Of a stretch of 64,000 nt of DNA, positions 43,896 through 63,657 are shown piece after piece. Every line of letters starts with the position of its first letter. Position 1 is the stretch's first letter. Source of the stretch: an uncultured Planctomycetia bacterium (GTDB lineage Bacteria; Omnitrophota; Gorgyraeia; Gorgyraeales; Gorgyraeaceae); contig CAYPYS010000007.1 in NCBI GenBank assembly GCA_964415355.1, forward strand, positions 11,208 to 75,207. Reading direction: 5' to 3'. A program made the translations under genes and the position numbers. The notes under the pieces were generated by a model. The model made no database searches. It was not told the DNA's origin and was given only the letters and a program-made list of their open reading frames with translations.

Positions 43896-43924
43896 TTGAC
43901 AAGAAAGCGTTTTCGCGGTATAAT
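43896..43924 (+). promoter_or_regulatory. Perfect-consensus sigma70 promoter in front of giant ORF 1
   Basis: TTGACA (43896-43901), exactly 17 nt, TATAAT (43919-43924). Confidence 0.7.
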
Positions 43925-43942
43925 TTATATATTATGTAGTAG

Positions 43943-43962: not shown

Positions 43963-43980
43963 GAGTTGAAAGGGGGATCT

Positions 43981-44064
43981 ATGTATCGCAGGCGCATCAA
44001 CAGGATCACATCCATCGTAACTCTTCTGACGTTTCTTTCCACCAGCACCCTTTACGCAGCACCA
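43981..44064 (+). other. Shared 28-aa N-terminal leader, copy in giant ORF 1
   Basis: MYRRRINRITSIVTLLTFLSTSTLYAAP versus ORF3 MTWKIIRKITSIVILITFLSTNVIYAAP: 17/28 identical with no gaps. Basic n-region, hydrophobic core, and a YA|AP cleavage-like end. Confidence 0.8.
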
Positions 44065-47000
44065 TCCAGCCGTTCATTCTTCAAAAATAAAAAAGTAGAT
44101 CACAAGAAACTAAGTGACCAGAACGAAGACTTTATAGAGAAAAAAGGCTCTGTCCTTGATATTAAAAATGGCGCAAAGCCCCAGGCGCGCAGGAAAGAGG
44201 CAAGGGCCCTCCTTTCTTCCCATCTAAAGGATTTATCGCAGATACATATACCTTCTGAACTGGGAAGGATAATAGAGGTGTATGAAGGGGAAAAGGATAA
44301 ACGACAAGGAACAAGGCCTTTGATCGTTCATATCCAGGACCTCCACACAAATCCAGAGGCAGAACTTAACCTTGCCAAGATCCTCGAAATACTTATAAAA
44401 GACTATAGCATGAATCTGGTCTGCTCAGAAGGCGCAGACGGAGAGGTGGATACTTCTTCTGTCTCAAGCTTTCCGGATTACTCTGTGAGAGAAAAAGTAG
44501 CCAGGCTCTTCATAGATTCAGGAGAATTGACAGGAGAGGAGTATTTATCGATAACAAAATATCCTGATCTAGCCATATGGGGCATAGAGGATAGAGATAT
44601 ATACTTTAAAAACATAATAGAGTTCAATAAGATTATAAAATTCTCTCCCCAAAGCCACGTATTTATATCCCAGGCCAAAAAGGCCCTGGAGCAACTTAAG
44701 CCCAAGATATGCTCAAGGGAACTAAAAGACCTGGACCAGAAAGAAGCCTCCTATGATAACCAGGAGATAGAGGTAGCCCAGTATCTTAATTACCTCGCTG
44801 ATTATGTTGAGGCACTCGGAATCAATACAAAAGACTATAGAAATGTGAATCTATTGGCTGAATCCATAGACCAGGAAAAGACTATAAATCAACAAAAGAT
44901 AATGGATGAGTCGCAAAGTCTTTTGTTGAACCTTCAGGTCTCTCTTTCTAATAAAAGGATAAAAAAAGAGCAGGATGAACTTATGGCGCGCGCAGAGCTT
45001 TTCAGGGACCAGAAGATCTCACCCTTTTCATTCTATAGCTACTTAAAAGCCTTGGCTCTCAGGCACCTGAAAGAAGGTCTTTCAAAATACCCTGATCTTG
45101 ATCGCTACATCACCTATCTCACGAATGTAAACTCTTTAGACCAGGTGAAACTCTTCAATGAACTAAAAGATCTCGCATACGATATAAAACAGGCCCTCGC
45201 AAGGACGCCTGAACAAAAAAGATTTGTAAAGGCCCTCAGGAACATAAACTTTTTAGAATCTTTCTTTAACCTCAAGGTCTCAAACGAAGAATTAGACTAT
45301 TACCTGGCCAATAGAGACTCCCACAAGGTAGGATTCTTTCAGGATTTTCTGAAACCCACCCTGAAAAAATACAGACTATCGAGTTTCATAGATTATAATA
45401 CAGACCTTATAGACTCAAAGCTTCCTATCCTCGAAGACTTCTACAAGACTGTCAAAGACCGCGACGTAGCAATGGTCAAAAACTCCCTCTCTGAGATCGA
45501 AAACCGCAATTCAAAAGTCTCTGCCCTGATCGCAGGCGGTTTTCATACAAAGGGCATAACAACTTTACTAAGAGACAAAAACTATTCCTATATAGTAGTA
45601 TCCCCATACTCATCCACTGACATAGACGAGGAGAATTATCATTTTCTATTATCAGGTAAACGCAAGCCGCTGACAGAGCTATTGAATAAGCTTGATGCGT
45701 CAGAAATCGTAGACGGGCTTTCCTCAAGCTTAAGGGTAACGGTGGGTTTTGATCTTGATATGCACGATGGCTTAAGAGAAAAGGTTGCCCCTGTGCTCGC
45801 AGAAGAATTAGGCGTATCAGTGGAAGAGGTAACCCCGGAAAATATTCTTGGGAGAATAGTTCCGGTTCTTCTATTGCACAGAGAGGCCTCGAGCTGGTTT
45901 AGTAATTTTGACAAGATTATCGGCGTAGAGATAAAGCGGACTGCCAAGGGACTTGTAATGAAGATATCCCCTAAAGGTAGAGGGACAAAAGCAAGATATA
46001 TTATGGCCACAAGAGATAGCGGGTTTACTCTTGCGACAGCACGTGACTTCAATGCTGCAGGCGCGACAGTAATAGCTGTTGCTCCCGAGAAGAGCCCTCT
46101 GGCAGATACAGAGGATGATTCTTCACTTACCTATGCCGGAGGAGAGCAAGCTAGAAACGTAACTACTTATAATGACCTATCAGCGCAGGGCATCAGGGAT
46201 TCACTGGCGACACTTTCTCGCGACGGCGCTATTTTAGTCCTGGCTGACGGCACAAAGTGGACTGTGAGTGAATGGGATAGCCAGAGCAAGACCGCAGCGC
46301 TTACTGGTCTAGGAGATGCAAAAGGAGAAACGCAATACATATCAGTGCTGGATGACGGCCTGGTTGTCATAAGTGCTACTCCTCTTATTCGCGACTATAC
46401 AGTCGTGGCCATTGCATCGGATGCTTCTGTTTCTGTCAAGATAAAGGCATTGGCAGAGGATATTTTTACGAGTCCTGACAGGGCGCTTGCGACAGCCGCG
46501 CTTCAATATGGCCTGACCCGCGGATTCCAGCCGCTTATCAATTACATATCAGCGCTTCTTGAGAGAGAAGGCGTAAAGGCCCATCCTGAGACAGAGGTCG
46601 TAATGCTGGATGATGTCTTTGAAGGAGAAGATATTTTAGCAAGACTCCTCATAGAAGAAGGCGATATAGTTGTTTACAATAGCGGAAACCTGTCCGAGCA
46701 GGACAAAAGGATTTATACCAATCGTGGCGCAGAGTTAATAGAGATGGACCTCTCGACACCCGTTGGGATGCACAAGTTGTCCGGGCGTCTCGAGAACGGT
46801 AGTATAGACGCGGACCGCGTTAAATTTATTCAGGTTTTGTCCGAGAGAAAACTAGGGACAGAAACTATGTCGCAGTCTGCAAGAGTCGCGCTTTTAGCAC
46901 TGGCCAGAGAGCATGATTTTCTTTTAGTAGAAGACGCCAGGTACAGGGATCCTGTTTTGTCAGAAAACGAAAGTTTAAAGGCCATCGATTACGAAGGCCT

Positions 47001-48084
47001 TGATAGCAGGGTCGTGCAGCTTCGCAGTCTTTCGCAGCTTTTTGGGAAAGACGTAGAGATAGGTTCTGGTTATGCCGTGCTTCCGGCCGCGCTCGCGGTA
47101 AAGTTTGAGGCGACTAAAGGCTCTGTAACGCTTCACCCGAATTCAATGGCGCAGATACTTGTATATAAGGAATTATTGAGGAGATACGGAGATAGAGACA
47201 TTGAATTTTCTGAACTTACTGAGGCAGAGAAAAATCCGGAATTACCGGCCTGGCTCTCGGATAAATTATCTGACTATGGCAGAGGCATCAAGCTTTCAGA
47301 GATAAGAAGGATCCTGAAACTCATGGCCGACCCTGATTTGATTTCATTGGCCGGAGGCATACCTGCCGCCGAACTGTTTCCTTACGAACAGACCTATGAA
47401 CTTATTGCAGAATTCGGCGAAGGAGACTGGAGAACGGCTCTGACTGCTTCTCACAGTCAGGGCATTGAGAGGCTCAGGGCATTGGCAGCAAAGACTGTTG
47501 GCGCCGGCGCAGAGAATGTGCTTATAACAGATGGCTCGCAAGAGGGCCTTGACCTTTTAGGCCGCTTTGTCAGGTCTATTTCGTCAGAGAGGGATGACAG
47601 GGCTAATGAGGTCATAACCCAGAAGCCGACATACCTTGGATTCATGAGCGCTGCGGATCCATATGGATGCGAGGTCCAACCGTATGATCTGAATAATCTA
47701 GAAGGCATTGAAGAACTTAGAAAAGATCTGAGGACGAGAGCTGATGCCGGAGATGCCCTTCCTTCTCTTATGTATATAATGCCTACCTTTGGCAATCCAA
47801 ACGGAGACGTAATGAGTTTAGAGGAAAGGGTAAGGCTTTTGGAGGTAGCAGACGAGTTTGACATAGCCATTGCCGAAGACAATCCATATGGAGCGCTTAG
47901 ATACGAGGGGGAAGCTATCCCTACCTTGCTTGAGTTATCAAGAGAATCAGGCAATGCCACTGTTTTATACCTTGGCACAGTGTCCAAGACATTTACCCCG
48001 GGCATGAGGATAGGCTGGACAGTAGGGCCTGTGGAAATAATACAGCGTTTAACAGCATACAAGGAAGAGACGGTAAAAAGGTAG
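43981..48084 (+). CDS. Giant fusion ORF 1 (1367 aa): signal-like leader, unknown (possibly TraB/Tiki/ChaN-like) N-region, unknown middle, degenerate plus canonical class I aminotransferase modules; ends at a frame break
   Basis: Uninterrupted 4.1-kb ORF. ATG 43981 follows SD aaaggggg and a consensus promoter. 'ISLAGGIPAAELFP', 'MPTFGNPNG', 'AEDNPYG' and 'GTVSKTFTPGMRIGW' are aminotransferase (Aro8/LysN-type) motifs. See the domain features below. Confidence 0.8.
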   Translation: MYRRRINRITSIVTLLTFLSTSTLYAAPSSRSFFKNKKVDHKKLSDQNEDFIEKKGSVLDIKNGAKPQARRKEARALLSSHLKDLSQIHIPSELGRIIEVYEGEKDKRQGTRPLIVHIQDLHTNPEAELNLAKILEILIKDYSMNLVCSEGADGEVDTSSVSSFPDYSVREKVARLFIDSGELTGEEYLSITKYPDLAIWGIEDRDIYFKNIIEFNKIIKFSPQSHVFISQAKKALEQLKPKICSRELKDLDQKEASYDNQEIEVAQYLNYLADYVEALGINTKDYRNVNLLAESIDQEKTINQQKIMDESQSLLLNLQVSLSNKRIKKEQDELMARAELFRDQKISPFSFYSYLKALALRHLKEGLSKYPDLDRYITYLTNVNSLDQVKLFNELKDLAYDIKQALARTPEQKRFVKALRNINFLESFFNLKVSNEELDYYLANRDSHKVGFFQDFLKPTLKKYRLSSFIDYNTDLIDSKLPILEDFYKTVKDRDVAMVKNSLSEIENRNSKVSALIAGGFHTKGITTLLRDKNYSYIVVSPYSSTDIDEENYHFLLSGKRKPLTELLNKLDASEIVDGLSSSLRVTVGFDLDMHDGLREKVAPVLAEELGVSVEEVTPENILGRIVPVLLLHREASSWFSNFDKIIGVEIKRTAKGLVMKISPKGRGTKARYIMATRDSGFTLATARDFNAAGATVIAVAPEKSPLADTEDDSSLTYAGGEQARNVTTYNDLSAQGIRDSLATLSRDGAILVLADGTKWTVSEWDSQSKTAALTGLGDAKGETQYISVLDDGLVVISATPLIRDYTVVAIASDASVSVKIKALAEDIFTSPDRALATAALQYGLTRGFQPLINYISALLEREGVKAHPETEVVMLDDVFEGEDILARLLIEEGDIVVYNSGNLSEQDKRIYTNRGAELIEMDLSTPVGMHKLSGRLENGSIDADRVKFIQVLSERKLGTETMSQSARVALLALAREHDFLLVEDARYRDPVLSENESLKAIDYEGLDSRVVQLRSLSQLFGKDVEIGSGYAVLPAALAVKFEATKGSVTLHPNSMAQILVYKELLRRYGDRDIEFSELTEAEKNPELPAWLSDKLSDYGRGIKLSEIRRILKLMADPDLISLAGGIPAAELFPYEQTYELIAEFGEGDWRTALTASHSQGIERLRALAAKTVGAGAENVLITDGSQEGLDLLGRFVRSISSERDDRANEVITQKPTYLGFMSAADPYGCEVQPYDLNNLEGIEELRKDLRTRADAGDALPSLMYIMPTFGNPNGDVMSLEERVRLLEVADEFDIAIAEDNPYGALRYEGEAIPTLLELSRESGNATVLYLGTVSKTFTPGMRIGWTVGPVEIIQRLTAYKEETVKR
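44300..45610 (+). other. Unknown N-region of ORF 1 with weak TraB/GumN/Tiki/ChaN-like end motifs
   Basis: 'LIVHIQDLHTNPEAE...LVCSEGADG' near the start and 'ALIAGGFHTKGITTLLRDKNYSYIVVSP' near the end resemble the two conserved blocks of that superfamily. The assignment is by eye only. Confidence 0.3.
46470..47190 (+). other. Degenerate aminotransferase large-domain copy (module 1)
   Basis: 'LQYGLTRGFQPLINYISALLEREGV', 'LVEDARY' and 'KGSVTLHPNSMAQILVYKELL' align by eye with class I aminotransferase blocks. The NPxG and SxSK motifs are not preserved. Confidence 0.5.
47290..48081 (+). other. Canonical class I (Aro8/LysN-type) aminotransferase module 2, truncated ~30 aa after the PLP lysine
   Basis: 'ISLAGGIPAAELFP', 'ITDGSQEGLDLL', 'KPTYLGF', 'MPTFGNPNG', 'AEDNPYG', and 'GTVSKTFTPGMRIGW' (Lys codon 47986-47988). 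Confidence 0.75.
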
Positions 48085-48089: not shown

Positions 48090-51000
48090 GTGCCTGGCTG
48101 GCCGTTTTTAGGAGAGTCAAATCAGATCAGGCTGTCTTTCCCGACAAACTCCCCTGATATTATAGACGGCGCAGTAAAGGCAGTTAGTATTGCCATAAAG
48201 GACAGCATGGGCAAAGGCACCCTGGCTATGGAAGGCCAGGTCCCTGCTGCTGATCTCGAGATCCTTACTAACTTTGGGACAGCCGGATGGCGAGGCACTG
48301 ATTTTACAGACGGCAATGTCAGGCGCATGGCACAGGCTGTTGCCGAAGTAGGGATAGCAGAAATCAATAAGCCTGTTTCTGAGATTCGCATGGCTGTCGG
48401 ATATGATGCAAGGCCTGGTGCCAGGGAAGATGCTATCCTCCTAACAGAGGTTCTGGTAGCGAACGGCATACACGTTGATTTCATAGATCAGGTATTGCCT
48501 TCACCCGTAATGATAGAGGTAACGCACGGAAGCGTTCCTGATTCAGAAAGATATGATCTAACGGTTTATTTTACCGCAAGTCATAATCCCGTGTATCAAT
48601 CGCTTGACCCGCTTAAGCAGTATAAAGGTATAAAGATATTAATAGAGGGTGTTCCTGCCGGCGATGAGTTTACCTCAAAGATATCAGCTCGAGCAAATGA
48701 CCTGGCCAAGAATGCCACATATAAATATATTCCCTTTGATCAGATTCCGGATATGCTTATTACGCATGACGTGGATCTTATTGCAAAAGATAGAGCTCGA
48801 CTTGAAAAAGCCTTTGGGCTTTCAGATTATGGAGTAAAAATAGCCAGATTATTTACTATATTTCCTAATTTGACGATTCGCATAAGTCCGATGAACGGTG
48901 CGACCGTGGAACAGATCGCTATATTCGATAAAATAGGCCTACCTGTAGTTTTTTATGATACCGCGCCTTTGCATGAAGTTATAGCCAGCGGAGAATACGA
49001 GCTTCAGACTGCAGACGGGATAATGAAAGGACCTGATCCGACAAAACCCTATAATCTTAATGCAGAGATGTTAAAAGATACAGAAGGGCAGGATGTCATA
49101 AAGTTTCTTATTGACGGAGACGGGGACCGTCTTGTTGTCGAGGATATAAACGGCAGGCCGATCACGCCTAATGAAATCGGTCTTATCATCGCCCATTATC
49201 TCCTGGAGCACAAGGGCGAGGAAGGTTACGTCGTCCGCACTTTGCCTACTACGAGAATGCTGGATCGTCTCGCAAGAAAATTTGGAATGCCTCTCGCGCA
49301 GACAGGAGTCGGCTCAAAGAACTTCGGGCCTTATACTGTTCAAGGGACCGAGCAGCGTCTTATCGTTGCCGTTGAAGAGAGCGGACATGTTTTCTTTAGA
49401 TTAGGCGATGAGATATTTGTCGACCATGCAGTAGCCGAGGCCTTGATCCTGCTCGATATCATGGCAACGACAGGCAAGACATTGACCCAGTATCTTGAGG
49501 AGGTCGAAAGAGAGCTGGGGACTATTCATTATAAACGGGATGCCGTGGCCAAGGAATTAGCGGTCCCTGGCCTGAAGCGCGGGCTATTGTGGCTGCGCAA
49601 TAATGATCCTGAGCTTTTGGCGCGCGCAATCGCAGATGAACTGGGTATGGATTTGAAAGGTTTTGATCCATTGGATAAGACCGGTGTCCTTGTAACCTTT
49701 GAAGATGATCAATGGATTTTACCTCGCGCATCAGGCACGACAAATACTATAAGGATTTACGCTGAGACGAGTTCTCAGGAAGATCTGGAAAAATGGATAA
49801 GCGGAGCAGAAAGGGTTTTGGTAAAACTTGTCAATGATATGGCTGCTCAAGGCATACTGGACAGGTCTCCGGATATCTGGTCGCATGTTATAGAAAGAGG
49901 AAAATCTCTCGCAGGCGATATCGTGAAGTGGCTCGGCTGGGTAGATGCGCCTGTGAGATTTTTGAAACGGATGTCAAAGATTAGAAGCTTGAAGTCAGAG
50001 CTTGCAGAGGAAGGCATAACCAATGTCGTTGTCCTTGGCACCGGAGGATCAGGCCTGGGTATAGGGACTTACGCCGAGGTCTTTGAAAAAGATAATTTAA
50101 TAGTCATTGATTTAGAAGATCCTCAGGGCATACAGAATGCAATGGCATGGGTCGATGAAAGGGGTTGGGATAAGACGATCTTTACTGTGCAGAGCAAATC
50201 CTGGGGCACTACTGAAACAAGAAACGCAGAGGCAGTTTTCAGGCAGGTCCTGGCTGATCGGATAGGGGCTGAAAATGTAGCCCGGCATTTTATAGCAGTG
50301 ACTGACGCAGGCAGGATAAAGGGAGAAGAGAGGGCTAATTTTAGGGAAATATTTGCGACTAATTATCCCGGAGATGCCAGGAAAGGTCGCGATATAGGTG
50401 GCAGATATTCTTCAGATTCCTTCTTTAGTCTTGTTCCGGCTGAATTAGCAGGCATACCCCATGAAGAGCTTTTAGTGGATGCCCGCGATGAATATAACCA
50501 GTTCAGGCGAGAGCTTGGAGAATATATAGGTGTCCGCATAGGCGCAGAGCTTAGCAGGTTCCACGGCCTTGGCAGAAATAAAATTACCTTTATATTAGAT
50601 AAAGGCCTTGAAGCATTTGGACCGTGGGTGCAGCAGCTTATAAATGAATCCGTAGGCAAGAACGAAGATACCGTAGTCTGTGTTACCGGAGAAGAATTTT
50701 CAGGAGATAGTTCTGTGTATGGGGATGACAGGGTCTTTGTGAAGATCGCTATAGGTAAAGGTCCTGCTATGCAAGTCACAGAACAAGGCATTGTTCTCAT
50801 AGTCGAAAGTAAAAATGACATAAATAGATTGCAATATAGGTTCAAGGTAGCTACTGCTATCCTGGCAAATCTAATGGGTGTGCACCCGTTTAATCAGCCG
50901 TTTGTCGAGAGCAGTAAATGGATTACAAAGGGTCTCCTGGATTCGGAGTTGACTCCTGAGCAGCTCACAGCAGAGCTTGTCGTAGCCGCATCTGAAAATT

Positions 51001-58600: not shown

Positions 58601-61600
58601 TAGAAAAGACAGACCTTCGCCAGGTAGCAGTATCTCTGGATACGAATCCTGAGGGAAGAGGCGTTGTTATCGAAGGCGCTCCGGCATTACAGTTTGAAGG
58701 GCTGTTTAAGGAAGGCATTGATAGATTCAAAAAGGCATTAGGGCTCGATGTAGTTGAGATAATCAGCGAGAGTGAATCTTTTGTGCAGGTGAGGTATGAG
58801 AGAGGTGACATAGCATATCTTTTTACATTCGATAAGAAAAATACAAGATTGATCTTGAAACCATTGAGGACATTTGCCGTCGTTGGCCTTGAGAGTAAAA
58901 ATATTGATCTGGCAGATGCATTGCGCAGCAGGGGATTTGCGGTTACCGGCTTGATTTCTACTAAAGACAGAGGTTTTAGAGATAAATTAATGGAGGCCGA
59001 GAGACAGGGTATCAGTGTTTATGCGATAGAAGCAGGTTTGCTAAACCCTGGTATTAGCGGCAGTCTTCAGGCATTGCTTAATGACATCGAACGCCTGCGT
59101 CTTGCTAGATTTGTCGCGGTTGACACAGAGACGATCAGGGAGATAATCGGCCTGGACGAATACACGAAACTCGTCGAGGAGATAAACGAATATACACATA
59201 ATTCTATAATAAACTCTGTGGATTTGTTGCCGACAGGCAACACAGACTTTGATGAGGTCATGGCGAGTTTTGCTCCCGAATGGCAGGACCAGGTTCGCGA
59301 CCTCGCGCCCGGACACGGCCTATGCCCCGGCTGCGGTCAGCCGACAGACACGCACCTTGTATTAAAGGTAGCGGATGAACATGGAATGGCGCCGGTGGGT
59401 GTCATTACGACAGGCTGCCAGGAAGTCTCGACCACTAACTGGCCTTTTAATTCATGGCGCATACCAATGGTCCACGGAAACTATACAGCATCAGCCGCAA
59501 TCGTCAGCGGTATCTTCCGTGTCTATCAGTGGTTCAAAAAGATGGGCGTAAGTGTTTACGGGGATAAAGAAATCTTGCCTATAGTTATTATGGGAGACGG
59601 TGGTTTTGCAATAGGGCTAAATGTAATATCAGGCGGCCTGGAAAAGGGATTACCGATTTTATATCTGGTCGAGAATAATTCAGGCACTCAGAATACGGGC
59701 GCGCAGGCATCCACGCTTTCGATGCCGGGCATAACTGCGCAAGGCGCCTCACAGGTAAAGACCACGCAAGGCGTGTATATACCTGATATAGCAAAGGCGC
59801 ACGGACCTAACGTCTATTACGCAAGGGTTTCCAATGCATATCCCGAAGATTTTGAGAGAAAATTAAACCGCGCAATGGAATGGATAAAACAGGGAAGAGG
59901 ACCTGCGGTCATAGAGTCTTTTAACACCGCATGCCCTACCGGCTGGAAGTCTGACGCGACACAGAGCCAGGAAGAAACCTCTCTTTCGGTCCAGACAGGC
60001 GTTGGCATGACTGTGCTTTTTGAGCAGGTCGGGAATCGCATAAGGATAACGCAACCACCTCTTCTAAGAGACGGAAAGATATATATAAATACAGAATATA
60101 TGCGAAGCCTGGAATATGAGTTAGGTCATTTAAGGAATGCCGGCGGCAAGAGGCTGTTATCTGACAGACAGGTGGCTTCCATGATTTCGCATATCAAGAA
60201 GAGAAGGGAATTTATTTTGGCAAGAGAGCTTGAAAGAAGACAGCCTAAAAAACCAGGCCTGCCGTTTGTCCAGCTCGACTTAGATGCGTTAAAGAACCTG
60301 CTTGTCCTTCATTCGTTCAACCTGCCTCTGGAGTCAGACCTATTGATAGACAGGTTGGATGTCCTGGGCCTTTCCGGAGACGAGATAGAGGACATTGCGC
60401 AGCATCGGTCAGAGGGTAATGAATTCAGAAACAGGCAGGACGTGCTTCGGTTTATAACCGATGTGCGTTACAGAGAGGTTACGGAAAGAATACTTGATAT
60501 ATATGACACAGTCGAGATCAGGGATTTTATTATGGAATGGACAGAGACAAAGGAAGAGGGAAATATCGATTTCGAGGAGACCGTTGTATTTGAGAAGATA
60601 GAAGATATTTTGAAAGTCCCGGGCATAGGGCCAGTGACGTATGATGCCGTAAGTCCGTATCTTACATTAGAACCGAGAAGACCTCATATATTCGAATACT
60701 TATCGAGACAGGGAAGATTCAGGAGGCTTCTTGGCTGGGATGACGAGGCGTTTCTGGGAGACATGCAGCGAGATGTGGACGCGCATATACTTAGGCTGAT
60801 GGCGCAGCATGAAAACGACAGGGCTTTCTTTGAGAACTTTGATAATTTACTGGCCAGAGGAGAAAAAATCCCGGTAGAGCAGTTCAGGTACAAGTCAGCA
60901 AGGGAGGCGCATGACAAGGCCCTTGTTCCTGCTAGAGTCATACCTGCGGATCCGGAAAGAAACATCAGGATTTTAGAACGCAGGGCAAGGCTAGGGGATA
61001 GGGTTTTTGAAGAACGCTGGCATGGAAGAGGCGGCCAGGGTGCTATTACTGCGGCAACGCTTCTGGCAACATATGCGGGCGAGGTAGAAGGTATAGGCAT
61101 TCAGGCGTTTCCGCACTTTGGGGTCGAACGCGCAGGTGCGCCTGTAAAGGCATATGTCAGAATGGGTAATAATATAAAACAGCATGACCCTGTTACGGAA
61201 CCTGATGTAGTAGTGGTTATAGATGAGTCTTTGCTGGAACTTCCCGAAGTGTTGGAAGGTATAAAGCCGGGCGGTTTTCTATTGGTGAATAGCAAAAAGC
61301 CGGCTGAAAAAATACTGGAAGAATTAAGGGCTAAAGGCAATGCGCTTAAGGATATTACTCTTTTTAGCGTGGACGCTACCGGTATAAGCATAAAACACAT
61401 GGGAAGAAATCTCCCTAATATTCCTATGCTGGCTGCGAGGATTATGGTTTCGAGGCTTACTGATGCAGACTTGGGTCCGGCAGAAGGCGCCACGGATTAC
61501 ATAAGGCAGCTTTTAGTAGAGATGTTTGGAGAAAAGATAGCCGGATTAAATTACGACGCGATGCAGGAATCAGTACGTTCTATAGATGCTGTATCAGGCG

Positions 61601-63657
61601 CTGTTGAAGAGTTGATAGAAGAGTTTCTGGCAAAAAGAGAGCCTGTTGAAATTGATGTTGCTCAACCGGAAGAAGAAGACGCAGCGCTAAAAAGTAATGT
61701 CAGGCTCATGAATTCAAACAAGGCAGCTGCTATTGCACAGGTGCAGTCTGGCGTAAAGTATGTCCCCGGCTATCCGACAACCCCTGCGAGCAGTGTGGTC
61801 GAGATATTGGATACATATCAGGACAAGGGCTTGCCGCTTATAGTATCGCTTCTTCCTGCAGAAGACTCAGTGGGCGGAGAATTACTTGGCACTGCGCTGG
61901 CAGGAGGCATGCCTGCGACAGGGACTACATCAGTGGCATTGGCGTATATGTTTAACCAGCATCTTGCAGATATGGTAGGTAAAAGGACGCCTGTTGTCGT
62001 AAATGTGCCTGTCCGCGCATTGAATATAGGTTCCTTGAGTATATTTCCCGACGAGACAGACATAGCAATGTTCAGGGATTATGGTGTGTATCTGCGCGCG
62101 CGCAATGCGCAGGAAGTGTATTATTTCAATATCATTGCGTGGAGGATCGCAAAGAAACTTAGGATGCCTGTATTCGTAGTGTATACGGGATTCCGCAACA
62201 GCCATACCACAGAACCTGTCGAAATACTCGGTGATTACGATAGAATAGAGGAGTATCTGGGCGGGACAGGATTATTTTCTATAAGAGATACTATACTGGA
62301 CCAGGAATCGCCTAAGATGATAGGGCCTGTTGTCGGCAAAGAGATCATGATGGAGCAGATGGCAGAGCTTTTTGAGGATATAGCACGAAATCAGGACCAT
62401 GTAATAGAGGAGGCTTTTGCGGAATTTGAAAGGCTCTTTGGTATTAGGTTTGATAGATTCAGGCAGTATAGGGTCGAGGATGCCGATGAGATAATAGTGG
62501 TGCAAGGAGATACAGGCGAGACTATCGAGCTTATGGTCGACAGATTAAGGGACCAGGGCAGAAGGGTCGGCGTAATAGAGATAGCTACAATAAGGCCTTT
62601 CCCCGGGAAGGAATTAAGAGAGGCGCTTGTTAATATAAATCCGAAGATAATAACTGTCCTGGATAATGCGCCGAGCCACTATTTGTATGATGATGTCGTA
62701 AGGTCTATCCAGTTTACAGATATACAGGTCTGGGGACCTGTGATATATGGTCTGGGCGGGAGGGATTTCTTCAGACAGGATGCGGTAACGCTTTATGATA
62801 CGCTGATCTCGCTTAGAGTGCTTCAGGCATTAGGAGCAAAAGAAAGTCCTGTTTCTCTGACCAGAGCGTCTCTGACGCAGCTTTTGAATGAGGAGGCAGT
62901 GACACTGGGCATGGCAAAGCACGGATTTGTCGAACCAGGCGATGCGCTTGCGGGCCGGCGAGGAGCAAGAAGCATCCCGGCGATACTTGACACGCTGGAT
63001 TTTGCAGCCAGCTCGGCTGATATGCCTGGATTTTCAAGAAACGCTGTCTTTGAAAAGTTGACGCAGGGTGAGCTCCTCAAGCTTTTTGGCGACGAGTATT
63101 ATTTTGGAGCTCGCAGGAAATATAAGCATGATCTGCTTATGCACGCGCTGGTGAATGAGTTGGCAGTCAGGCTTTCTAGGCAGTTACTGGGATCTAATAT
63201 CGGCACTATAGACGAGAGGACGCAGGCAATAGATGCGCTCGTGCATTTGAGTGACATAGAAGCGGATAAGGAACTCGCCAGAACAAGCTCTGAGAGTTTG
63301 CGCAAGTATCGACGCAGGGATCAGGTTGCTTCAACGGACCAGATTATCGCAGTGTCTGCCGCACAGGTCATAGCCGAGAAAAAAGAATTCGAGGCATGGA
63401 TAGAGAACCAGTCAGAGAATATTGCTGTAGTTATAATAGCTACGGCTGAAGAGTATTATCAGGTCAGGGAGTATGAGGACATCGCCTATATAAAGGTAGT
63501 GGGCAAGGACATTAGCGAAGCGCATGGCCTTACCTTGAAAAGGTTGTTGGCATTGCACGGTCATTTAGATAATTTCGGTGGCTTCAGGCTTGGCGACGAA
63601 AAGTTCGATCTAGACGAATACAGGTCAGCCCTGACCGAGCTCTCCACCGGCATCTAA
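52546..63657 (+). CDS. Giant fusion ORF 3 (3703 aa): signal-like leader, unknown ~600-aa region, NfnB/GltD-like flavoprotein, NfnA/PyrK-like module, PorD-, PorB-, PorC- and PorA-like 2-oxoacid:ferredoxin oxidoreductase modules, shared C-terminal domain
   Basis: Uninterrupted 11.1-kb ORF with SD aaggag 7 nt before the ATG. Domain motifs are listed in the separate domain features. Confidence 0.85.
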   Translation: MTWKIIRKITSIVILITFLSTNVIYAAPGPRKTLRVPLGFAREKLLEQEQTGLPTKEMLLMMAQAVAMRMDDESILMDLGTTFFNTAFRRNLGSPIEIRRNKNTGTVHIRYNDRYISITRSGNISVSSRINFDKAELVIASIKPLVASSSDPTDKKDRTIGSLLGLMETFADLGLKPGEKITINDIIPERKKQDGTLYSRTTVSREFKDAVALDLLRLTGNKIKNSNEYEVLKSFTREQLSRLPGHIRKKLNRGRIRSDEIEELRRIFIAETLMGQGTLLKVFLAGLAGFQEALADIPYDLSGANTETVQSLFTAVENIVFLARDFDKKDPAYAEAYIYESLGFVDIDGKRRLALVITPFEDRRKTGSLDVLVFDSLLSANYTSHAIKATEIEMVSTIVGRLDEKDIISLSLKFRAEYLDNPDGPGTSDTRRSAKDFFLYFASKRNATQEILDLDEELIDGLEGRDLEIKERMARLKEGVSDKDLLDEWFIEIMQGKDTLVQYLLYTGDAATFWYDLLLELDYTRAINEMFLSRPDAMTTYARNAYEQAVVASWIYIHRADFGSPLGERAAEDRIEDFQLALTWDTLGIPGQKALGMTKAEFPVCLNCVGRPCQHGPLGSVAAQTRTRSGFASGIRSLIEDNNVSASVQLEGVFISEGVSYLTHLYNYAELLLIDQADVTRWMNMTARELDSEIRLLTDDADAIDQEAKNIAEPHCPLEVPIADMFRLMRQDRFEEALEILNNSSFLAGIFGLVCPQEHLCQAACVQGRLSDRPLPIDIGKLEYLIELTYMRINGELPMPEVAPFTGKYVAIIGSGPAGLQAAYDLAREGHKVVLFEHLHKVGGVLVYGIPTFRLPPELLEEKVRILKEMGVNFVTNAIIGEDGAYTIEEMRRSFDAVIVGVGAGQSNKMEIRGKVVLLDEKTGRARLEVPEYAKRVPIPGRALNGIYSAYHFLSWTYLMNAIKPGYDTPIPLSKNILQAFTESRATGEEKEVTVVVEGIGNVALDSGRTALRWINVLNRIYGTNVRPKIIFLYRRPREELDLKARAEELKHLREEGVDTIDIDVYELHQTVEYLGNTKGHIEGIRAIRYDRKGAKEGVLVDIPVDMVVEALGAKPATEILGPSIPLNRYGYIEIDNHRTMQVRDMDGSDGLAPVYAVGDCAEVDAIDERIMATAVLAATHGKRASEALIERLDNETGMVQRYIDIDKVFFKATPYRMHEILERRRIGKRELVSRPLRGDTGNVFSEQRIVEFTIYAPHVARRIRPGQFVTLMADEYSEKIPITYVGLGKIKGSIRLAILDAGESTVKINNMKKGDLFYAVTGPAGEPSIFTGLAGEVDLVGLGSGIAAIVGIAEHRADLDRKYKELMARLAGNSRADVVLSLIEEIWSELSLAKDDLLHYIVDAIRDRDYNEAKNLLTALAYSIEQDFPASELIADAEALVDTITMLEDSVEDEDELNLLVKQEVYQAIDDIWEEFEILKREKLLREISDFVSSGNYKNASNALNAVIGAGFETKVFLAVGNKDLLMYKTELEEAVGRENIFIALEDAEGFDPHAEGYASLIAHENRFFTGYGTIAFGDYLGRTHDPISGLLVAGPAFAMNLFVPLVREANRPDILSTRDVWMSTNPPMYCAYGGCLMCLVATEQAIPWRGCLGPEAEADMLIGDSIVKGLEMSKPQDIMPGVIFSTSPSVDREQAISDIVQALDEILYMPTVDGKLFVAISDAKGSFIAELRNGILEERLSDEDIDAVLENIDWERLGVFKPGHKIRFAGRISDVSGLELDRVMELLGLTMQGGSGAEDSDSGMTLDDLFSRSLDLSILGIEVIGEFREVSISPSGFSRLRAFLEEIGDRQKLEEILGLEGSEFIFVMNGANELVAIVIRNETRQKELLWIEGEASSELFSYLTLRASLRGSSISADLTVEEIKPGAILGPGATTTPASSALAKTGTWTTKYAEHDLDACVQCGLCALVCPEGAIAFDMEPALNTGRLVLPTNPDYCKGCDACVVHCPLKGYALKMIEKTDLRQVAVSLDTNPEGRGVVIEGAPALQFEGLFKEGIDRFKKALGLDVVEIISESESFVQVRYERGDIAYLFTFDKKNTRLILKPLRTFAVVGLESKNIDLADALRSRGFAVTGLISTKDRGFRDKLMEAERQGISVYAIEAGLLNPGISGSLQALLNDIERLRLARFVAVDTETIREIIGLDEYTKLVEEINEYTHNSIINSVDLLPTGNTDFDEVMASFAPEWQDQVRDLAPGHGLCPGCGQPTDTHLVLKVADEHGMAPVGVITTGCQEVSTTNWPFNSWRIPMVHGNYTASAAIVSGIFRVYQWFKKMGVSVYGDKEILPIVIMGDGGFAIGLNVISGGLEKGLPILYLVENNSGTQNTGAQASTLSMPGITAQGASQVKTTQGVYIPDIAKAHGPNVYYARVSNAYPEDFERKLNRAMEWIKQGRGPAVIESFNTACPTGWKSDATQSQEETSLSVQTGVGMTVLFEQVGNRIRITQPPLLRDGKIYINTEYMRSLEYELGHLRNAGGKRLLSDRQVASMISHIKKRREFILARELERRQPKKPGLPFVQLDLDALKNLLVLHSFNLPLESDLLIDRLDVLGLSGDEIEDIAQHRSEGNEFRNRQDVLRFITDVRYREVTERILDIYDTVEIRDFIMEWTETKEEGNIDFEETVVFEKIEDILKVPGIGPVTYDAVSPYLTLEPRRPHIFEYLSRQGRFRRLLGWDDEAFLGDMQRDVDAHILRLMAQHENDRAFFENFDNLLARGEKIPVEQFRYKSAREAHDKALVPARVIPADPERNIRILERRARLGDRVFEERWHGRGGQGAITAATLLATYAGEVEGIGIQAFPHFGVERAGAPVKAYVRMGNNIKQHDPVTEPDVVVVIDESLLELPEVLEGIKPGGFLLVNSKKPAEKILEELRAKGNALKDITLFSVDATGISIKHMGRNLPNIPMLAARIMVSRLTDADLGPAEGATDYIRQLLVEMFGEKIAGLNYDAMQESVRSIDAVSGAVEELIEEFLAKREPVEIDVAQPEEEDAALKSNVRLMNSNKAAAIAQVQSGVKYVPGYPTTPASSVVEILDTYQDKGLPLIVSLLPAEDSVGGELLGTALAGGMPATGTTSVALAYMFNQHLADMVGKRTPVVVNVPVRALNIGSLSIFPDETDIAMFRDYGVYLRARNAQEVYYFNIIAWRIAKKLRMPVFVVYTGFRNSHTTEPVEILGDYDRIEEYLGGTGLFSIRDTILDQESPKMIGPVVGKEIMMEQMAELFEDIARNQDHVIEEAFAEFERLFGIRFDRFRQYRVEDADEIIVVQGDTGETIELMVDRLRDQGRRVGVIEIATIRPFPGKELREALVNINPKIITVLDNAPSHYLYDDVVRSIQFTDIQVWGPVIYGLGGRDFFRQDAVTLYDTLISLRVLQALGAKESPVSLTRASLTQLLNEEAVTLGMAKHGFVEPGDALAGRRGARSIPAILDTLDFAASSADMPGFSRNAVFEKLTQGELLKLFGDEYYFGARRKYKHDLLMHALVNELAVRLSRQLLGSNIGTIDERTQAIDALVHLSDIEADKELARTSSESLRKYRRRDQVASTDQIIAVSAAQVIAEKKEFEAWIENQSENIAVVIIATAEEYYQVREYEDIAYIKVVGKDISEAHGLTLKRLLALHGHLDNFGGFRLGDEKFDLDEYRSALTELSTGI
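54358..56125 (+). other. NfnB / GltD-like (glutamate synthase small-subunit family) FAD/NAD(P)H oxidoreductase module with a split N-terminal Fe-S motif
   Basis: 'CLNCVGRPC' ... (~100-aa insert) ... 'HCPLEVPI', 'GLVCPQEHLCQAAC', dinucleotide fold 'KYVAIIGSGPAGLQAAYDLAREGHKVVLFE', 'GGVLVYGIPTFRLP', 'VYAVGDCA'. Confidence 0.75.
56165..57530 (+). other. NfnA / PyrK-like ferredoxin-NADP reductase-type module (FAD barrel, NAD fold, 2Fe-2S) with a ~155-aa helical insertion
   Basis: 'RPGQFVTLM', 'IPITYVG', 'TGPAGEP', 'DLVGLGSGIAAIVGIAEH', then an insertion at 56610-57085. The fold resumes at 'KVFLAVGN' and ends in the Cys motif 'MYCAYGGCLMCLV...RGCLGPE'. Confidence 0.65.
58320..58610 (+). other. 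PorD-like (delta subunit) 2x[4Fe-4S] ferredoxin module
   Basis: 'KPGAILGPGATTTP...KTGTWTT' followed by 'CVQCGLCALVCP' (58428-58463) and 'CKGCDACVVHCP' (58540-58575). Confidence 0.85.
59300..60030 (+). other. PorB-like (beta subunit) thiamine-diphosphate-binding module
   Basis: 'GHGLCPGCG', 'TTGCQEV', TPP motif 'GDGGFAIGLNVISGGLEKGLPILYLVENN' (GDG-X24-NN), 'NTACPTGW'. All four Fe-S Cys positions are present. Confidence 0.85.
60365..60665 (+). other. Two ComEA-like helix-hairpin-helix-type segments in the PorB-PorC linker
   Basis: 'IEDIAQHRSEGNEFRNRQDVLRFI' and 'ILKVPGIGPVTYDAVSPYL' resemble the A-x-x-I-x-x-yR-x-x-G-x-F...L-x-x-V-PGIG pattern. Confidence 0.35.
60990..61490 (+). other. PorC-like (gamma subunit) module
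   Basis: 'WHGRGGQGAITAATLLA', 'AFPHFGVERAGAPV', 'PDVVVVIDESL', 'VDATGISIKHMGRNLPNIPMLAA'. Confidence 0.85.
61695..62815 (+). other. PorA-like (alpha subunit) module
   Basis: 'MNSNKAAAIAQVQSGVKYVPGYPTTPASSVVE', 'AEDSVGGELLGTALAGGMPATGTTSVALAYM', 'TPVVVNVPVRAL', 'PVFVVYTGFRNSHTTEPVE', 'IRPFP'. Confidence 0.85.
63337..63654 (+). other. Shared C-terminal domain (~106 aa), copy in giant ORF 3
   Basis: DQIIAVSAAQVIAEKKEFEAW...AVVIIATAEEYYQVREYEDIAYIKVVGKDISEA...DNFGGFRLG...DLDEYRSALTELSTGI. Confidence 0.8.

What the first reader, a model, noticed from the sequence alone, without database searches (positions are those of the whole stretch)
43896..63657. A family of giant multi-enzyme fusion proteins sharing the same N-terminal leader and the same C-terminal domain
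Three very long ORFs (1367, 1269 and 3703 aa) plus an Rrf2 regulator occupy 20 kb. ORF1 and ORF3 begin with collinear 28-aa leaders, MYRRRINRITSIVTLLTFLSTSTLYAAP and MTWKIIRKITSIVILITFLSTNVIYAAP (17/28 identical, no gaps). ORF2 and ORF3 end with a ~107-aa domain that is about half identical. That domain includes ...AVVI(V/I)A...(E/D)(F/Y)(G/E)DIAYI(R/K)VVGKDISE...FGGF.LG...DLD(D/E)(F/Y)RS...(S/T)G(V/I)-stop, and I cannot assign it to any family. If ORF1 and ORF2 are or were one gene (see the frame-break finding), both units have the architecture leader, unknown region, several complete cytoplasmic-type enzymes, common C-terminal domain. The shared termini differ at many synonymous sites, so they are maintained by selection rather than being recent copies. 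A constant N-terminal address and C-terminal module around variable enzyme cargo is what one would expect of a dedicated targeting, anchoring or assembly system. I know of no described system that does this with central-metabolic enzymes.
Basis: partly seen in the sequence, partly recalled or inferred. Interest (0 to 1): 0.9.

Follow-up and report, generated by a model that had tools for sequence, protein, structure and literature searches.

The report
Omnitrophota enzyme-fusion proteins with shared ends
Two very long genes of an uncultivated Omnitrophota bacterium string whole sugar- and pyruvate-metabolism enzymes between a family-specific export-type leader and a previously undescribed C-terminal domain, a layout that recurs in related genomes and raises the unresolved question of where in the cell these central enzymes work.

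Summary
ORF1 (1,367 aa), ORF2 (1,269 aa), an Rrf2 regulator and ORF3 (3,703 aa) lie where stated. ORF1 and ORF3 share a 28-aa leader (17/28 identical). ORF2 and ORF3 share a ~120-aa C-terminal domain (about 47% identity, E 6e-26). Most identical residues use different codons. ORF1+ORF2 form one 2,639-aa gene in sibling assemblies; this strain carries a 1-nt deletion.

The modules define a small family: 34 clusters among 1.84 billion representatives. Every named member is from Candidatus Omnitrophota. Cargo is sugar-phosphate and pyruvate metabolism (PGM, PGI, PFK, enolase, FBA, FBPase, PGK, PPDK and others; here also NfnAB plus PFOR). Complete members run: Sec-type leader, LRVPL motif, enzymes, alpha/beta C-domain, and a tail ending in G-V/I.

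ORF1's "unknown region" has a TIKI/EreA/ChaN/TraB-type hydrolase fold. Elsewhere this domain is a separate signal-peptide protein.

Two preprints already describe signal-peptide-bearing multi-enzyme long proteins in Omnitrophota. Neither mentions the shared leader, LRVPL motif, C-domain or tail. My best reading is that leader and C-domain form a two-ended sorting or docking address. A cytoplasmic-face tethered metabolon and polyprotein processing remain live rivals. I judge it a new variant of a known kind, of moderately high interest.

The parts
43896..43924 (+). Perfect sigma-70 consensus promoter (TTGACA-17 nt-TATAAT) upstream of ORF1
   Evidence: 12/12 match, the best in the region; sequence read
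43981..48084 (+). ORF1 (1367 aa from ATG; the mechanical ORF starts at TTG 43966). It is the 5' part of a single 2,639-aa gene
   Evidence: It is continuous with ORF2 in sibling contigs L011 and L012
43981..44064 (+). Family leader of ORF1 (MYRRRINRITSIVTLLTFLSTSTLYAAP), with Sec-type signal-peptide features
   Evidence: only 5 of 17 identical residues share a codon with ORF3's leader
44065..45696 (+). TIKI/EreA/ChaN/TraB-fold domain (~545 aa) with a large helical insert; H, E and GGFH residues are invariant
45727..45744 (+). SLRVTV, the ORF1 version of the LRVPL motif that follows the leader in other members. It marks the old start of the cargo protein
46480..47157 (+). Weak, probably degenerate aminotransferase-like region
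   Evidence: Pfam Aminotran_1_2 E 0.007, below the curated cut-off
47422..48057 (+). Class I/II aminotransferase domain (profile positions 30-243 of 361). Its C-terminal end continues in ORF2 at 48090-48209, and about 80 residues of the family profile are missing in between
   Evidence: Pfam E 2e-18. The junction was read. The size of the deletion is my comparison with typical class I aminotransferases (inference)
48075..48079 (+). Frame break. The A5 run reads GTAAAAAGG here, where siblings read GTAAATAAGG, a 1-nt deletion. A -1 slip on A-AAA-A would restore the frame
   Evidence: The same deletion is in L007-L010; L011 and L012 are intact
48090..51899 (+). ORF2 (1269 aa), the 3' part of the same gene
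48270..49832 (+). Phosphoglucomutase/phosphomannomutase; TASHNP, DGDGDR and EESGH motifs are present
   Evidence: Pfam PGM_PMM I, III and IV; motifs read
49887..51389 (+). Phosphoglucose isomerase (SIS-type); GGRYS and SKSWGTTET motifs are present
   Evidence: Pfam PGI E 4e-8; 58% identical to the PGI segment of P0017
51549..51896 (+). Shared C-terminal domain of ORF2, ending ...ISSGV
51953..51989 (+). Terminator-like 17-bp hairpin plus T run after ORF2. It is also a copy of the genome's intergenic palindrome
52080..52520 (+). Rrf2-family regulator with three Cys (92, 99, 105) spaced as in cluster-binding members
   Evidence: Pfam Rrf2 E 5e-35; Cys positions
52546..63657 (+). ORF3 (3703 aa)
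   Evidence: The same 3703-aa protein is a database representative, P0004
52546..52659 (+). ORF3 leader (52546-52629) followed by LRVPL (52645-52659)
54679..56091 (+). NfnB/GltD-like domain (Fer4_20 + FAD/NAD(P) binding)
   Evidence: Pfam; PDB 4ylf_B E 5e-54 and 5jca_L 2e-47
56287..57510 (+). NfnA/PyrK-like domain with a long helical insert and a C-terminal Cys motif (CAYGGCLMC)
   Evidence: PDB 4ylf_A 3e-14 and 5jca_S 1e-11; Cys motif
58399..58584 (+). 2x[4Fe-4S] ferredoxin-like domain (POR delta-like); both CxxCxxCxxxCP motifs are intact
   Evidence: Pfam Fer4 families
59302..60153 (+). POR beta-like TPP-binding domain (GDG...NN motif present)
   Evidence: Pfam TPP_enzyme_C; PDB 9bt4_C 2e-22
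60994..61569 (+). POR gamma-like domain
   Evidence: Pfam POR 2e-27; PDB 2raa_A 5e-29
61693..62808 (+). POR alpha-like domains (POR_N + PFOR_II)
   Evidence: Pfam 8e-30 and 1e-12; PDB 6cin_A 1e-35
63310..63654 (+). Shared C-terminal domain of ORF3, ending ...LSTGI
   Evidence: AF2 predicts a (beta-alpha)x4 fold, pLDDT 64.5

Best explanation
What it is. The 20 kb holds two genes, not three, plus a regulator.
- Gene A is ORF1+ORF2, 2,639 aa, broken in this strain by a 1-nt deletion.
- Gene B is ORF3.
- Both belong to a lineage-restricted Omnitrophota family of multi-enzyme fusion proteins.

Architecture. A complete member has five parts.
(1) A family-specific Sec-type signal peptide (..K-I-x-S-hydrophobic-TFLxTN-x-x-Y-A).
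(2) A (T/H)LRVPL motif within about 20 residues.
(3) A string of complete, functionally linked, cofactor-motif-intact enzymes of sugar-phosphate or pyruvate metabolism. Here these are an aminotransferase remnant + PGM + PGI, and NfnAB + four-part PFOR.
(4) A ~115-aa non-catalytic alpha/beta domain.
(5) A tail ending in G-V/I.
Gene A additionally absorbed, between leader and LRV motif, a TIKI/EreA/ChaN/TraB-fold hydrolase-like protein that is normally encoded separately next to such genes.

Proposed mechanism.
- The leader takes the nascent chain to the SRP/Sec machinery at the inner membrane.
- The constant C-domain plus tail is a cargo-independent handle, read by a shared partner or by itself.
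- Different enzyme strings are thereby delivered to, or held at, the same envelope-associated place.
- The logic is the same as 'signal peptide + cargo + C-terminal sorting domain' systems.

Shown: the family, its modules, their co-occurrence, their independence of cargo, protein-level selection, and the gene fusion/split history.
Inferred: export or membrane targeting, docking or sorting by the C-domain, and enzymatic activity.
For: Family and modules.
- The C-domain lies at the extreme C-terminus in nearly all of 34 representative clusters out of 1.84e9.
- It also occurs in MAG loci L001-L006, L013 and L016-L019.
- Every named source is Candidatus Omnitrophota/Omnitrophica.
- About 17 full-length members carry leader + LRVPL. 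L006b has leader + PGM + PGI + C-domain in one 1,564-aa protein.

The modules are independent of cargo. Cargo Pfams include NagB/6PGL, PGM, enolase, PPDK, PFK, aldose epimerase, UDPGP, PGK, TAL, GDH, AKR, iPGM, GH15, GalK, FBA-II, GlpX and ACAD+HAD.

The tail. 28 of 37 members end in G-V/I, against 0 of 38 other window proteins. L006c and a 1,537-aa L014 protein keep ...SGV/SGI without the full domain.

Evidence for an exported context.
- The leader has a basic n-region, a 12-15-residue hydrophobic core, a polar TN..YA c-region with Ala at -1, and a total length of about 26 aa.
- There are no internal TM segments in the window ORFs.
- Stand-alone C-domain proteins P0019 (138 aa, in-frame stop upstream) and P0034 carry unrelated classical signal peptides.
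- Distant stand-alone homologues of the TIKI-like domain also carry unrelated signal peptides.
- The preprints predict SP or TM for 94% of long Omnitrophota proteins.

Selection: most identical residues use different codons.

The enzymes look functional.
- The PGM, PGI, TPP and Fe-S motifs are intact.
- The fusions join consecutive or coupled enzymes (PGM-PGI; PFOR-Nfn).
- A 3-Cys Rrf2 regulator sits directly upstream of the Fe-S-rich ORF3.

One transcription unit for gene A.
- A consensus promoter lies at 43896 and a terminator at 51953.
- The genome's ubiquitous intergenic palindrome is absent between ORF1 and ORF2.
Against: - Sec export delivers unfolded chains. ORF3 needs several [4Fe-4S] clusters, FAD, TPP, CoA and ferredoxin. 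Other cargo needs ATP/ADP, UTP or NAD(P)H. None of these is known to be available outside the cytoplasm, and the leaders have no twin-arginine motif.
- A leaderless stand-alone GpmA-like mutase and ordinary leaderless biosynthetic enzymes occur in the same window. At least part of central metabolism is therefore cytoplasmic.
- Published reconstructions treat glycolysis and PFOR as the core cytoplasmic energy metabolism of these classes.
- Basic residues follow the leader closely (R/K at +5/+6), so flanking charges do not decide topology.
- The C-domain model has only moderate confidence (pLDDT 64.5). No partner protein was identified.
- A profile of the leader found nothing significant in 5.8e9 proteins because it is too short. 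The leader family without the C-domain is therefore undefined.
Confidence: 0.45

Rival explanations
1. Cytoplasmic-face tethered metabolon. The leader is an uncleaved N-terminal membrane anchor, or merely recruits SRP so that the very long chains are made at the membrane. The enzymes stay in the cytoplasm. The C-domain oligomerises or docks the strings together, so that sugar-phosphate conversion, pyruvate oxidation and Nfn-type electron confurcation are co-localised in an ultra-small cell.
For: - The cargo needs cytoplasmic cofactors and Fe-S assembly, and its motifs are intact.
- The fused partners are metabolically consecutive.
- An Rrf2 regulator lies upstream of ORF3.
- Glycolysis and PFOR are counted as the core metabolism of Gorgyraia and Velamenicoccia.
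- The charges flanking the leader are roughly balanced.
- The 2026 preprint reads TM-only metabolic giants as facing the cytoplasm.
Against: - The hydrophobic core is short and ends in a classical TN..YA cleavage-type region. Many leaders fall below a 19-residue TM threshold.
- The C-domain and the TIKI-like domain also occur behind unrelated, ordinary signal peptides.
- When the TIKI gene fused to the cargo gene, the second leader was simply lost. That is what is expected if the leader only matters at the N-terminus of an exported chain.
Confidence: 0.28
2. Polyprotein precursors. The long chains are cut after synthesis into individual enzymes. Conserved junction motifs (LRVPL after the leader; LASNxG(L/I) between domains in the sister clade) would be cleavage sites. 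The leader-proximal TIKI-like hydrolase would be the processing enzyme. The C-domain would be a pro-region or quality-control cap that marks a complete chain.
For: - LASN occurs 21 times in 10 proteins (observed/expected 18.7), always at domain junctions and just before the C-domain.
- LRVPL marks the leader/cargo and TIKI/cargo boundaries.
- The TIKI/TraB/RRSP superfamily includes peptidases, and H/E/GxxH residues are invariant.
- TIKI-like genes sit next to or inside multi-enzyme genes.
- West-Roberts et al. also suggest proteolytic processing of the giant proteins.
Against: - The window's own proteins lack LASN, apart from one degenerate LLGSNIGT.
- Members of the superfamily are also esterases or haem binders, so protease activity is not implied by the fold.
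- No cleavage data exist.
- Processing does not by itself explain the constant C-terminal domain or the tail.
Confidence: 0.15
3. Enzyme-derived but non-enzymatic surface material. The domains are exported as building blocks or binding modules of a cell coat or adhesin, as proposed for other giant Omnitrophota proteins, and no longer catalyse metabolism.
For: - The leader is signal-peptide-like.
- Published readings treat the giant ORFs as an extracellular coat or adhesins.
- One aminotransferase domain is truncated and another is degenerate.
- The 3,042-aa member in L019 has no Pfam hit.
Against: - Active-site and cofactor motifs are kept across 44-58% identical orthologous segments.
- The fusions follow pathway order.
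- No adhesin-type repeats were found.
Confidence: 0.07
4. Artefact. The long ORFs would be created by misassembly, or by sequencing errors that join neighbouring genes.
For: Frameshift differences exist among assemblies. ORF1|ORF2 is split here and in L007-L010. ORF3 is split in L007 and L008.
Against: - The same order and junctions occur in six assemblies from different samples.
- The same architecture occurs in several distinct species.
- Errors would break ORFs, not create 3,703-codon ones.
Confidence: 0.02

Closest known systems
Long 'multi-enzyme metabolic' proteins and 'Archaeovorins' of Omnitrophota (West-Roberts et al. 2023, bioRxiv 10.1101/2023.11.21.568195; 2026 preprint 10.64898/2026.06.07.730766)
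   Same: Same phylum. Many unrelated enzyme Pfams (PGM, PGI, FBPase, FBA, PPDK and others) are tiled on one polypeptide. An N-terminal signal peptide or TM is present. The same puzzle arises: cytoplasmic-type enzymes predicted outside the cell.
   Different: The window's proteins are 10-40 times shorter (1.3-3.7 kaa, against 10-147 kaa). They have no internal TM segments, HEAT or dockerin repeats, or C39/S8/SecA domains. Neither preprint mentions the family-specific leader, the LRVPL motif, the C-terminal domain or the G-V tail (term searches). NfnAB+PFOR cargo is not mentioned either.
Type IX secretion cargo (Sec signal peptide + variable cargo + conserved C-terminal domain)
   Same: The same three-part logic. 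The constant C-terminal module of about 100 aa is independent of cargo, and stand-alone 'signal peptide + CTD' mini-proteins exist (P0019).
   Different: The T9SS CTD is a beta-sandwich found in Bacteroidota. This domain is predicted alpha/beta and has no hit to T9SS CTD models in Pfam or NCBIfam. The cargo here is central metabolism, not hydrolases or adhesins. No T9SS components were examined.
TIKI / EreA-B-C / ChaN / TraB-PrgY / HopBA1 / RRSP superfamily (for the N-terminal domain of ORF1)
   Different: A ~300-residue helical insert is present. No Pfam hit to TraB or ChaN models was found. The substrate is unknown. In this genome the domain is fused to enzyme cargo.
NfnAB and four-subunit pyruvate/2-oxoacid:ferredoxin oxidoreductases (for ORF3 cargo)
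   Same: All subunits are recognisable with strong E-values and cofactor motifs.
   Different: All six polypeptides are fused into one chain, in the order NfnB-NfnA-delta-beta-gamma-alpha. A 700-aa unassigned N-terminal region, long linkers, the leader and the C-domain are added.
Scaffolded enzyme assemblies (cellulosome dockerin-cohesin; eukaryotic multifunctional enzymes such as AROM or CAD)
   Same: A constant small module on variable enzymes could dock them to a common scaffold. Consecutive pathway enzymes are fused.
   Different: No dockerin or cohesin signature was found. No scaffold partner was identified. Fusion and docking are inferred only.

Membership tests
Omnitrophota long multi-enzyme proteins (preprints 2023/2026) | Encoded by Candidatus Omnitrophota | tested here: met
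   All named homologues are Omnitrophota/Omnitrophica MAGs, including Ca. Gorgyraea atricola.
Omnitrophota long multi-enzyme proteins (preprints 2023/2026) | Many distinct enzyme Pfams tile one polypeptide, with no dominant repeat | tested here: met
Omnitrophota long multi-enzyme proteins (preprints 2023/2026) | N-terminal signal peptide and/or TM helices | tested here: inconclusive
   The leader has signal-peptide features by inspection and by a hydropathy scan. No SignalP or DeepTMHMM was available.
Omnitrophota long multi-enzyme proteins (preprints 2023/2026) | Very great length (the preprints count >=10,000-aa proteins; West-Roberts giants are >=30,000 aa) | tested here: not met
   2,639 and 3,703 aa
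T9SS CTD-type cargo | C-terminal beta-sandwich CTD matching T9SS sorting-domain models | tested here: not met
T9SS CTD-type cargo | T9SS machinery (PorU/V/K-N, SprA) in the genome | not tested
   Only 64 kb of the genome was available.
Tat substrates | Twin-arginine S/T-R-R-x-F-L-K motif in the n-region | tested here: not met
   Only ORF1 has RRR. ORF3 and the other members have K/R singly.
TIKI/EreA/ChaN/TraB superfamily (ORF1 residues 29-572) | Shared alpha/beta core fold | tested here: met
TIKI/EreA/ChaN/TraB superfamily (ORF1 residues 29-572) | Conserved His / Glu / GxxH catalytic-site residues | tested here: inconclusive
   H95, E123 and GGFH495 are invariant in 24 sequences. Their structural equivalence to the catalytic residues of EreB, Tiki or RRSP was not checked residue by residue.
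TIKI/EreA/ChaN/TraB superfamily (ORF1 residues 29-572) | Match to Pfam TraB_PrgY_gumN / Cofac_haem_bdg / Erythro_esteras models | tested here: not met
   No hit even at E<=10. The profile search against PDB sequences was negative.
NfnAB + 2-oxoacid:ferredoxin oxidoreductase (ORF3 cargo) | All subunits present with cofactor motifs | tested here: met
Rrf2 regulators | Rrf2 wHTH domain; three-Cys cluster ligands in cluster-binding members | tested here: met
   Pfam E 5e-35. Cys92, Cys99 and Cys105.
PDZ-ligand-type C-terminal tails | Free C-terminus S/T-x-V/I/L | tested here: met
   ORF2 ends ..SGV and ORF3 ends ..TGI. 28 of 37 members end in G-V/I.
PDZ-ligand-type C-terminal tails | A cognate PDZ-domain reader (protease or secretion component) | not tested
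   No partner search was possible. The only PDZ-type candidate noticed is the housekeeping RseP-like gene at 23217-24302, identified by eye from its HEFGH start.

The most novel reading that the evidence does not exclude
Leader + LRVPL at one end and C-domain + G-V tail at the other form a dedicated two-signal sorting pathway. It would place much of the cell's sugar-phosphate and pyruvate metabolism, including an Fe-S-rich PFOR-Nfn module, outside the cytoplasmic membrane. The destination could be an energised periplasm or envelope compartment, the cell surface, or a host or prey cell. The adjacent TIKI-like hydrolase would be the maturation enzyme. This would be extracytoplasmic central metabolism, or metabolic effector polyproteins, in an ultra-small symbiotic or predatory bacterium.
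Probability: 0.17. Interest if true: 0.95.

Novelty: new variant of a known kind. Interest (0 to 1): 0.66.

Why it matters
Two preprints have noted that Omnitrophota put glycolytic-type enzymes on long, signal-peptide-bearing proteins. Neither could say why.

This locus shows the phenomenon in a compact, tractable form of 2.6-3.7 kaa with no internal membrane segments. It also supplies sequence-defined handles that the giant proteins lacked:
- a conserved leader;
- an LRVPL motif;
- a new C-terminal domain with a conserved free end;
- an associated TIKI-fold hydrolase.

These handles make the localisation question directly testable with reporter fusions, N-terminal and junction-spanning peptides, and pull-downs with the C-domain.

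There are two possible outcomes.
- If the enzymes are truly exported, this overturns the assumption that glycolysis and PFOR are cytoplasmic in these bacteria. It would also change every metabolic reconstruction of the phylum.
- If they are tethered inside, it is a natural example of membrane-scaffolded, covalently fused central metabolism in a minimal cell.

In either case, KEGG-style annotation that counts these domains as ordinary cytoplasmic enzymes needs a caveat.

Tried and rejected
- Sequence searches of the C-domain against Pfam, NCBIfam and PDB gave nothing meaningful.
- The ORF1 N-domain was searched against Pfam at E<=10, and against PDB by phmmer and by profile. Only noise came back. 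The fold search was needed to place it.
- A 15-sequence profile of leader + LRVPL against 5.8e9 proteins found no hit at E<=0.1, because the profile is too short for that database. Leader-bearing proteins that lack the C-domain could therefore not be enumerated.
- The genome and metagenome pattern scans returned only 4 loci each, because the back-translated patterns are narrow.
- Tat export was considered and rejected: there is no twin-arginine motif.
- A T9SS-type CTD was rejected as membership on fold and on taxon.
- I considered that the hydrophobic HEMGH region in the enolase-bearing members (P0012, L006a) is a site-2 protease. Pfam does not support it, so it is left as an observation.
- Encapsulin or microcompartment targeting peptides were considered from memory only. 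There is no supporting feature: the domain is folded, about 115 aa long, and associated with signal peptides.
- One literature search returned nothing relevant.
- I could not determine whether these fusions are the only copies of the enzymes in the genome, because only 64 kb and flanks of at most 10 kb were accessible.
Full report
**1. Observation**

The window carries, on the + strand, four ORFs.
- ORF1 spans 43966/43981-48084. It is 1,367 aa from the ATG, which sits 6 nt behind GGGGGA.
- ORF2 spans 48090-51899 (1,269 aa) and is in a different frame.
- An Rrf2 regulator spans 52080-52520.
- ORF3 spans 52546-63657 (3,703 aa).

The two leaders are 17/28 identical without gaps. The C-termini of ORF2 and ORF3 are 44.7% identical over 150 aa, E 6e-26, and 46-48% over the ~120-aa core. 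Only 28 of 58 identical C-domain residues use the same codon, and only 5 of 17 identical leader residues do. No other exported protein in the window has a leader like this.

**2. Domain content**

Pfam and PDB sequence searches assign the enzymes.
- ORF1: a class I/II aminotransferase at its end, plus a weak, probably degenerate second copy.
- ORF2: phosphoglucomutase and phosphoglucose isomerase.
- ORF3: NfnB/GltD-like (4ylf_B, E 5e-54), NfnA/PyrK-like, then the delta, beta, gamma and alpha parts of a pyruvate/2-oxoacid:ferredoxin oxidoreductase.

Catalytic and cofactor motifs are present:
- TASHNP, DGDGDR and EESGH in the phosphoglucomutase;
- GGRYS in the isomerase;
- GDG..NN for TPP binding;
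- both CxxCxxCxxxCP motifs;
- the PyrK-type Cys cluster.

The fused partners are metabolically coupled: PGM with PGI, and PFOR, which makes reduced ferredoxin, with Nfn, which uses it. The Rrf2 protein has three Cys spaced as in cluster-binding members. No repeat element or terminator separates it from the Fe-S-rich ORF3.

**3. ORF1 and ORF2 are one gene**

Exact look-up of the Rrf2 protein found the locus in six independent assemblies.
- L011 and L012 have one uninterrupted gene. It is 2,639 aa in L011. L012 reads GTAAATAAGG at the junction.
- The window and L007-L010 read GTAAAAAGG, a 1-nt deletion.

Three further points agree.
- A perfect TTGACA-17-TATAAT promoter precedes ORF1, and a 17-bp hairpin terminator follows ORF2.
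- The genome's ubiquitous intergenic palindrome is missing between the two ORFs.
- The break lies inside an aminotransferase domain that already lacks about 80 residues of the family profile. That is my comparison with typical members. This domain is probably decaying.
- A -1 slip on A-AAA-A, or re-initiation at the GTG 6 nt downstream, could still yield the downstream part. Neither was tested.

**4. The family**

The word-indexed search with the C-domain found only three proteins, one of them from an Omnitrophica MAG. Its contig gave the key result.
- A 1,564-aa protein has the leader MYRKIISITLAIIFLITNVSYAAQ..HLRIPM, then PGM, then PGI, then the C-domain.
- It is followed by a leader-bearing NagB/6PGL + PFK protein.

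The exhaustive HMM search of 1.84 billion representatives found 34 clusters (E<=1e-3; 16 at <=1e-30). The domain lies at the extreme C-terminus in nearly all of them. Pattern scans added four loci from the genome collection, all Omnitrophota MAGs, and four from metagenome contigs.

The cargo Pfams are listed under Best explanation. ORF3's NfnAB+PFOR cargo is unique among the representatives. One 3,042-aa member has no Pfam hit at all.

About 17 full-length members carry the leader followed within 3-18 residues by (T/H)LR(V/I/A)P(L/M). The two end modules co-occur. Exceptions exist: L004b has the leader only, and L006c keeps only the ..SGV tail.

**5. The C-terminal domain and tail**

The extreme C-terminus is conserved. 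28 of 37 members end in G-V/I, most often ..ASGV, against 0 of 38 other proteins in the window. Two leader-bearing relatives without a recognisable domain still end ..SGV or ..SGI. This suggests that the free end is itself read. It fits an S/T-x-V PDZ-ligand pattern, but no reader was identified.

P0019 is a genuine 138-aa protein, with an in-frame stop upstream. It consists of an ordinary signal peptide plus the domain. The domain therefore has a function of its own, in a signal-peptide context.

**6. ORF1's 'unknown region'**

Residues 29-572 of ORF1 are 47-66% identical to stand-alone ~570-aa proteins found across Omnitrophota, with a few more distant hits at 24-31% (60 hits in all, including Ca. 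Gorgyraea atricola). These proteins end just before the LRVPL position. All carry signal peptides: the family leader in close relatives and unrelated ones in distant relatives. They sit beside multi-enzyme long genes.

This is the TIKI/erythromycin-esterase/ChaN/TraB superfamily. A ~300-residue helical insert is present, and H95, E123 and GGFH495 are invariant.

Gene A is therefore a fusion of [leader-TIKI-like] with [LRV-cargo-C-domain], in which the cargo protein's own leader was lost.

**7. Localisation: the crux**

*For export:* the points are listed under Best explanation. In short, the leader looks like an SPase-I signal peptide, the window ORFs have no internal TM segment, and both conserved non-enzyme modules turn up behind unrelated classical signal peptides. 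Published DeepTMHMM results point the same way for Omnitrophota long proteins.

*Against export:*
- Sec exports unfolded chains, there is no Tat motif, and the cargo needs Fe-S clusters, FAD, TPP, CoA, ferredoxin, ATP, UTP and NAD(P)H.
- A leaderless GpmA-like mutase and ordinary leaderless biosynthetic enzymes are encoded in the same window.
- Glycolysis plus PFOR is regarded as the core energy metabolism of these classes.

I cannot resolve this with the tools available. I rank 'leader + C-domain as a two-ended sorting or docking address at the envelope' first. A cytoplasmic-face tether comes second, and polyprotein processing third.

The processing idea gains some weight from a junction motif in the sister clade. 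LASNxG(L/I) occurs 21 times in 10 proteins, with observed/expected of 18.7, always between domains and just before the C-domain. The motif is essentially absent from the window's proteins.

**8. Comparison with the literature**

- West-Roberts et al. 2023 report TPI, PGI, FBPase, PGM, FBA and PPDK domains in 'Archaeovorin' giant proteins. They predict them to be extracellular and say a missed TM segment might explain it.
- The 2026 preprint defines a 'multi-enzyme metabolic cluster' class of long proteins, reports that 94% carry an SP or TM, and discusses the same contradiction.
- Seymour et al. 2023 describe giant ORFs as possible adhesins.

Term searches in the two preprints on giant proteins found no mention of a shared C-terminal domain or cleavage motifs. 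Seymour et al. were not searched for these terms. The kind of object is therefore known. The family-defining ends, the TIKI-fold partner, the PFOR-Nfn cargo and the compact TM-free format are new.

**9. Verdict**

The feature is real and well supported. It is a new variant of a known but unexplained Omnitrophota phenomenon. Its value is that it turns an unresolved localisation paradox into something testable with defined sequence handles.

Noticed in passing
window, 38 sites, e.g. 3665-3691, 13019-13045, 42649-42675, 43861-43887, 51907-51933, 51963-51989, 63665-63691: A nearly invariant palindromic element (CTTTAACGTTGTTGAAATGTAAAGTTA, part of a ~37-nt hairpin) occurs 38 times against 0 expected. 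It sits in almost every intergenic gap, often overlapping stop codons. It creates the spurious 'LLKCKV' TTG starts in the ORF list. It is absent between ORF1|ORF2 and between Rrf2|ORF3. It is probably a genome-wide terminator or REP-like element.
   Followed up: partly
window 48075-48079: The 1-nt deletion that splits ORF1 from ORF2 lies in an A5 run (A-AAA-A followed by AGG TAG). It sits exactly where the aminotransferase domain has lost ~80 residues. A -1 slip or re-initiation at GTG 48090 could still express the PGM-PGI-C-domain part, in the latter case without a leader.
   Followed up: partly
L006 (46-5637 and 5657-10351) and proteins P0007, P0011, P0013, P0015, P0016, P0017, P0032: A recurrent inter-domain motif (K)LASN-x-G-(L/I) occurs 21 times in 10 proteins, with observed/expected of 18.7. 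It always lies at domain junctions and just before the C-domain. It is a candidate processing site or standard linker, and is nearly absent from the window's proteins.
   Followed up: partly
P0012 residues ~455-635; L006 46-5637 (residues ~35-200): Enolase-bearing members contain a multi-pass hydrophobic region with an HEMGH motif inside a predicted helix. It looks like a site-2 protease by eye, but Pfam does not support that (E > 0.1).
   Followed up: partly
L014 906-9770, 10001-11734, 11845-16458: Three consecutive genes each start with the leader plus the TIKI-like domain: two fused to long tails and one stand-alone. The hydrolase-like module is therefore multi-copy and repeatedly fused.
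   Followed up: no
L013, L018/L006, L019 versus window 28749-39485: In other Omnitrophota the long enzyme-fusion genes lie between proS and the rimP-nusA-infB-trpS-scpAB block. In the window that block is intact, but the fusion genes sit about 15 kb downstream, after the genes for ribosomal protein S1 and TyrRS. This indicates a rearrangement.
   Followed up: no
window 6618-7373: A stand-alone, leaderless histidine-phosphatase-family protein (GpmA-like start [14 protein letters not shown]). At least one glycolysis-type enzyme in this genome is therefore an ordinary cytoplasmic protein.
   Followed up: no
L007 7622-12552, L008 7622-12551: In two sibling assemblies ORF3 is split near codon 963-971. 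In the window, L009 and L010 it is continuous there. The cause is strain-level frameshift polymorphism or assembly error in these long genes.
   Followed up: no
window 52630-54678 and 57511-58398: About 680 aa at the start of ORF3 and about 300 aa between the NfnA-like and ferredoxin-like parts have no hit in Pfam; the first stretch also has none in NCBIfam. They include long predicted coiled or acidic stretches. Their role is unknown.
   Followed up: partly
L019 1199-10327: A 3,042-aa member (leader + TIKI-like domain + C-domain) on a 562-kb contig has no Pfam hit at E<=1e-5. Not all cargo is a recognisable enzyme.
   Followed up: no
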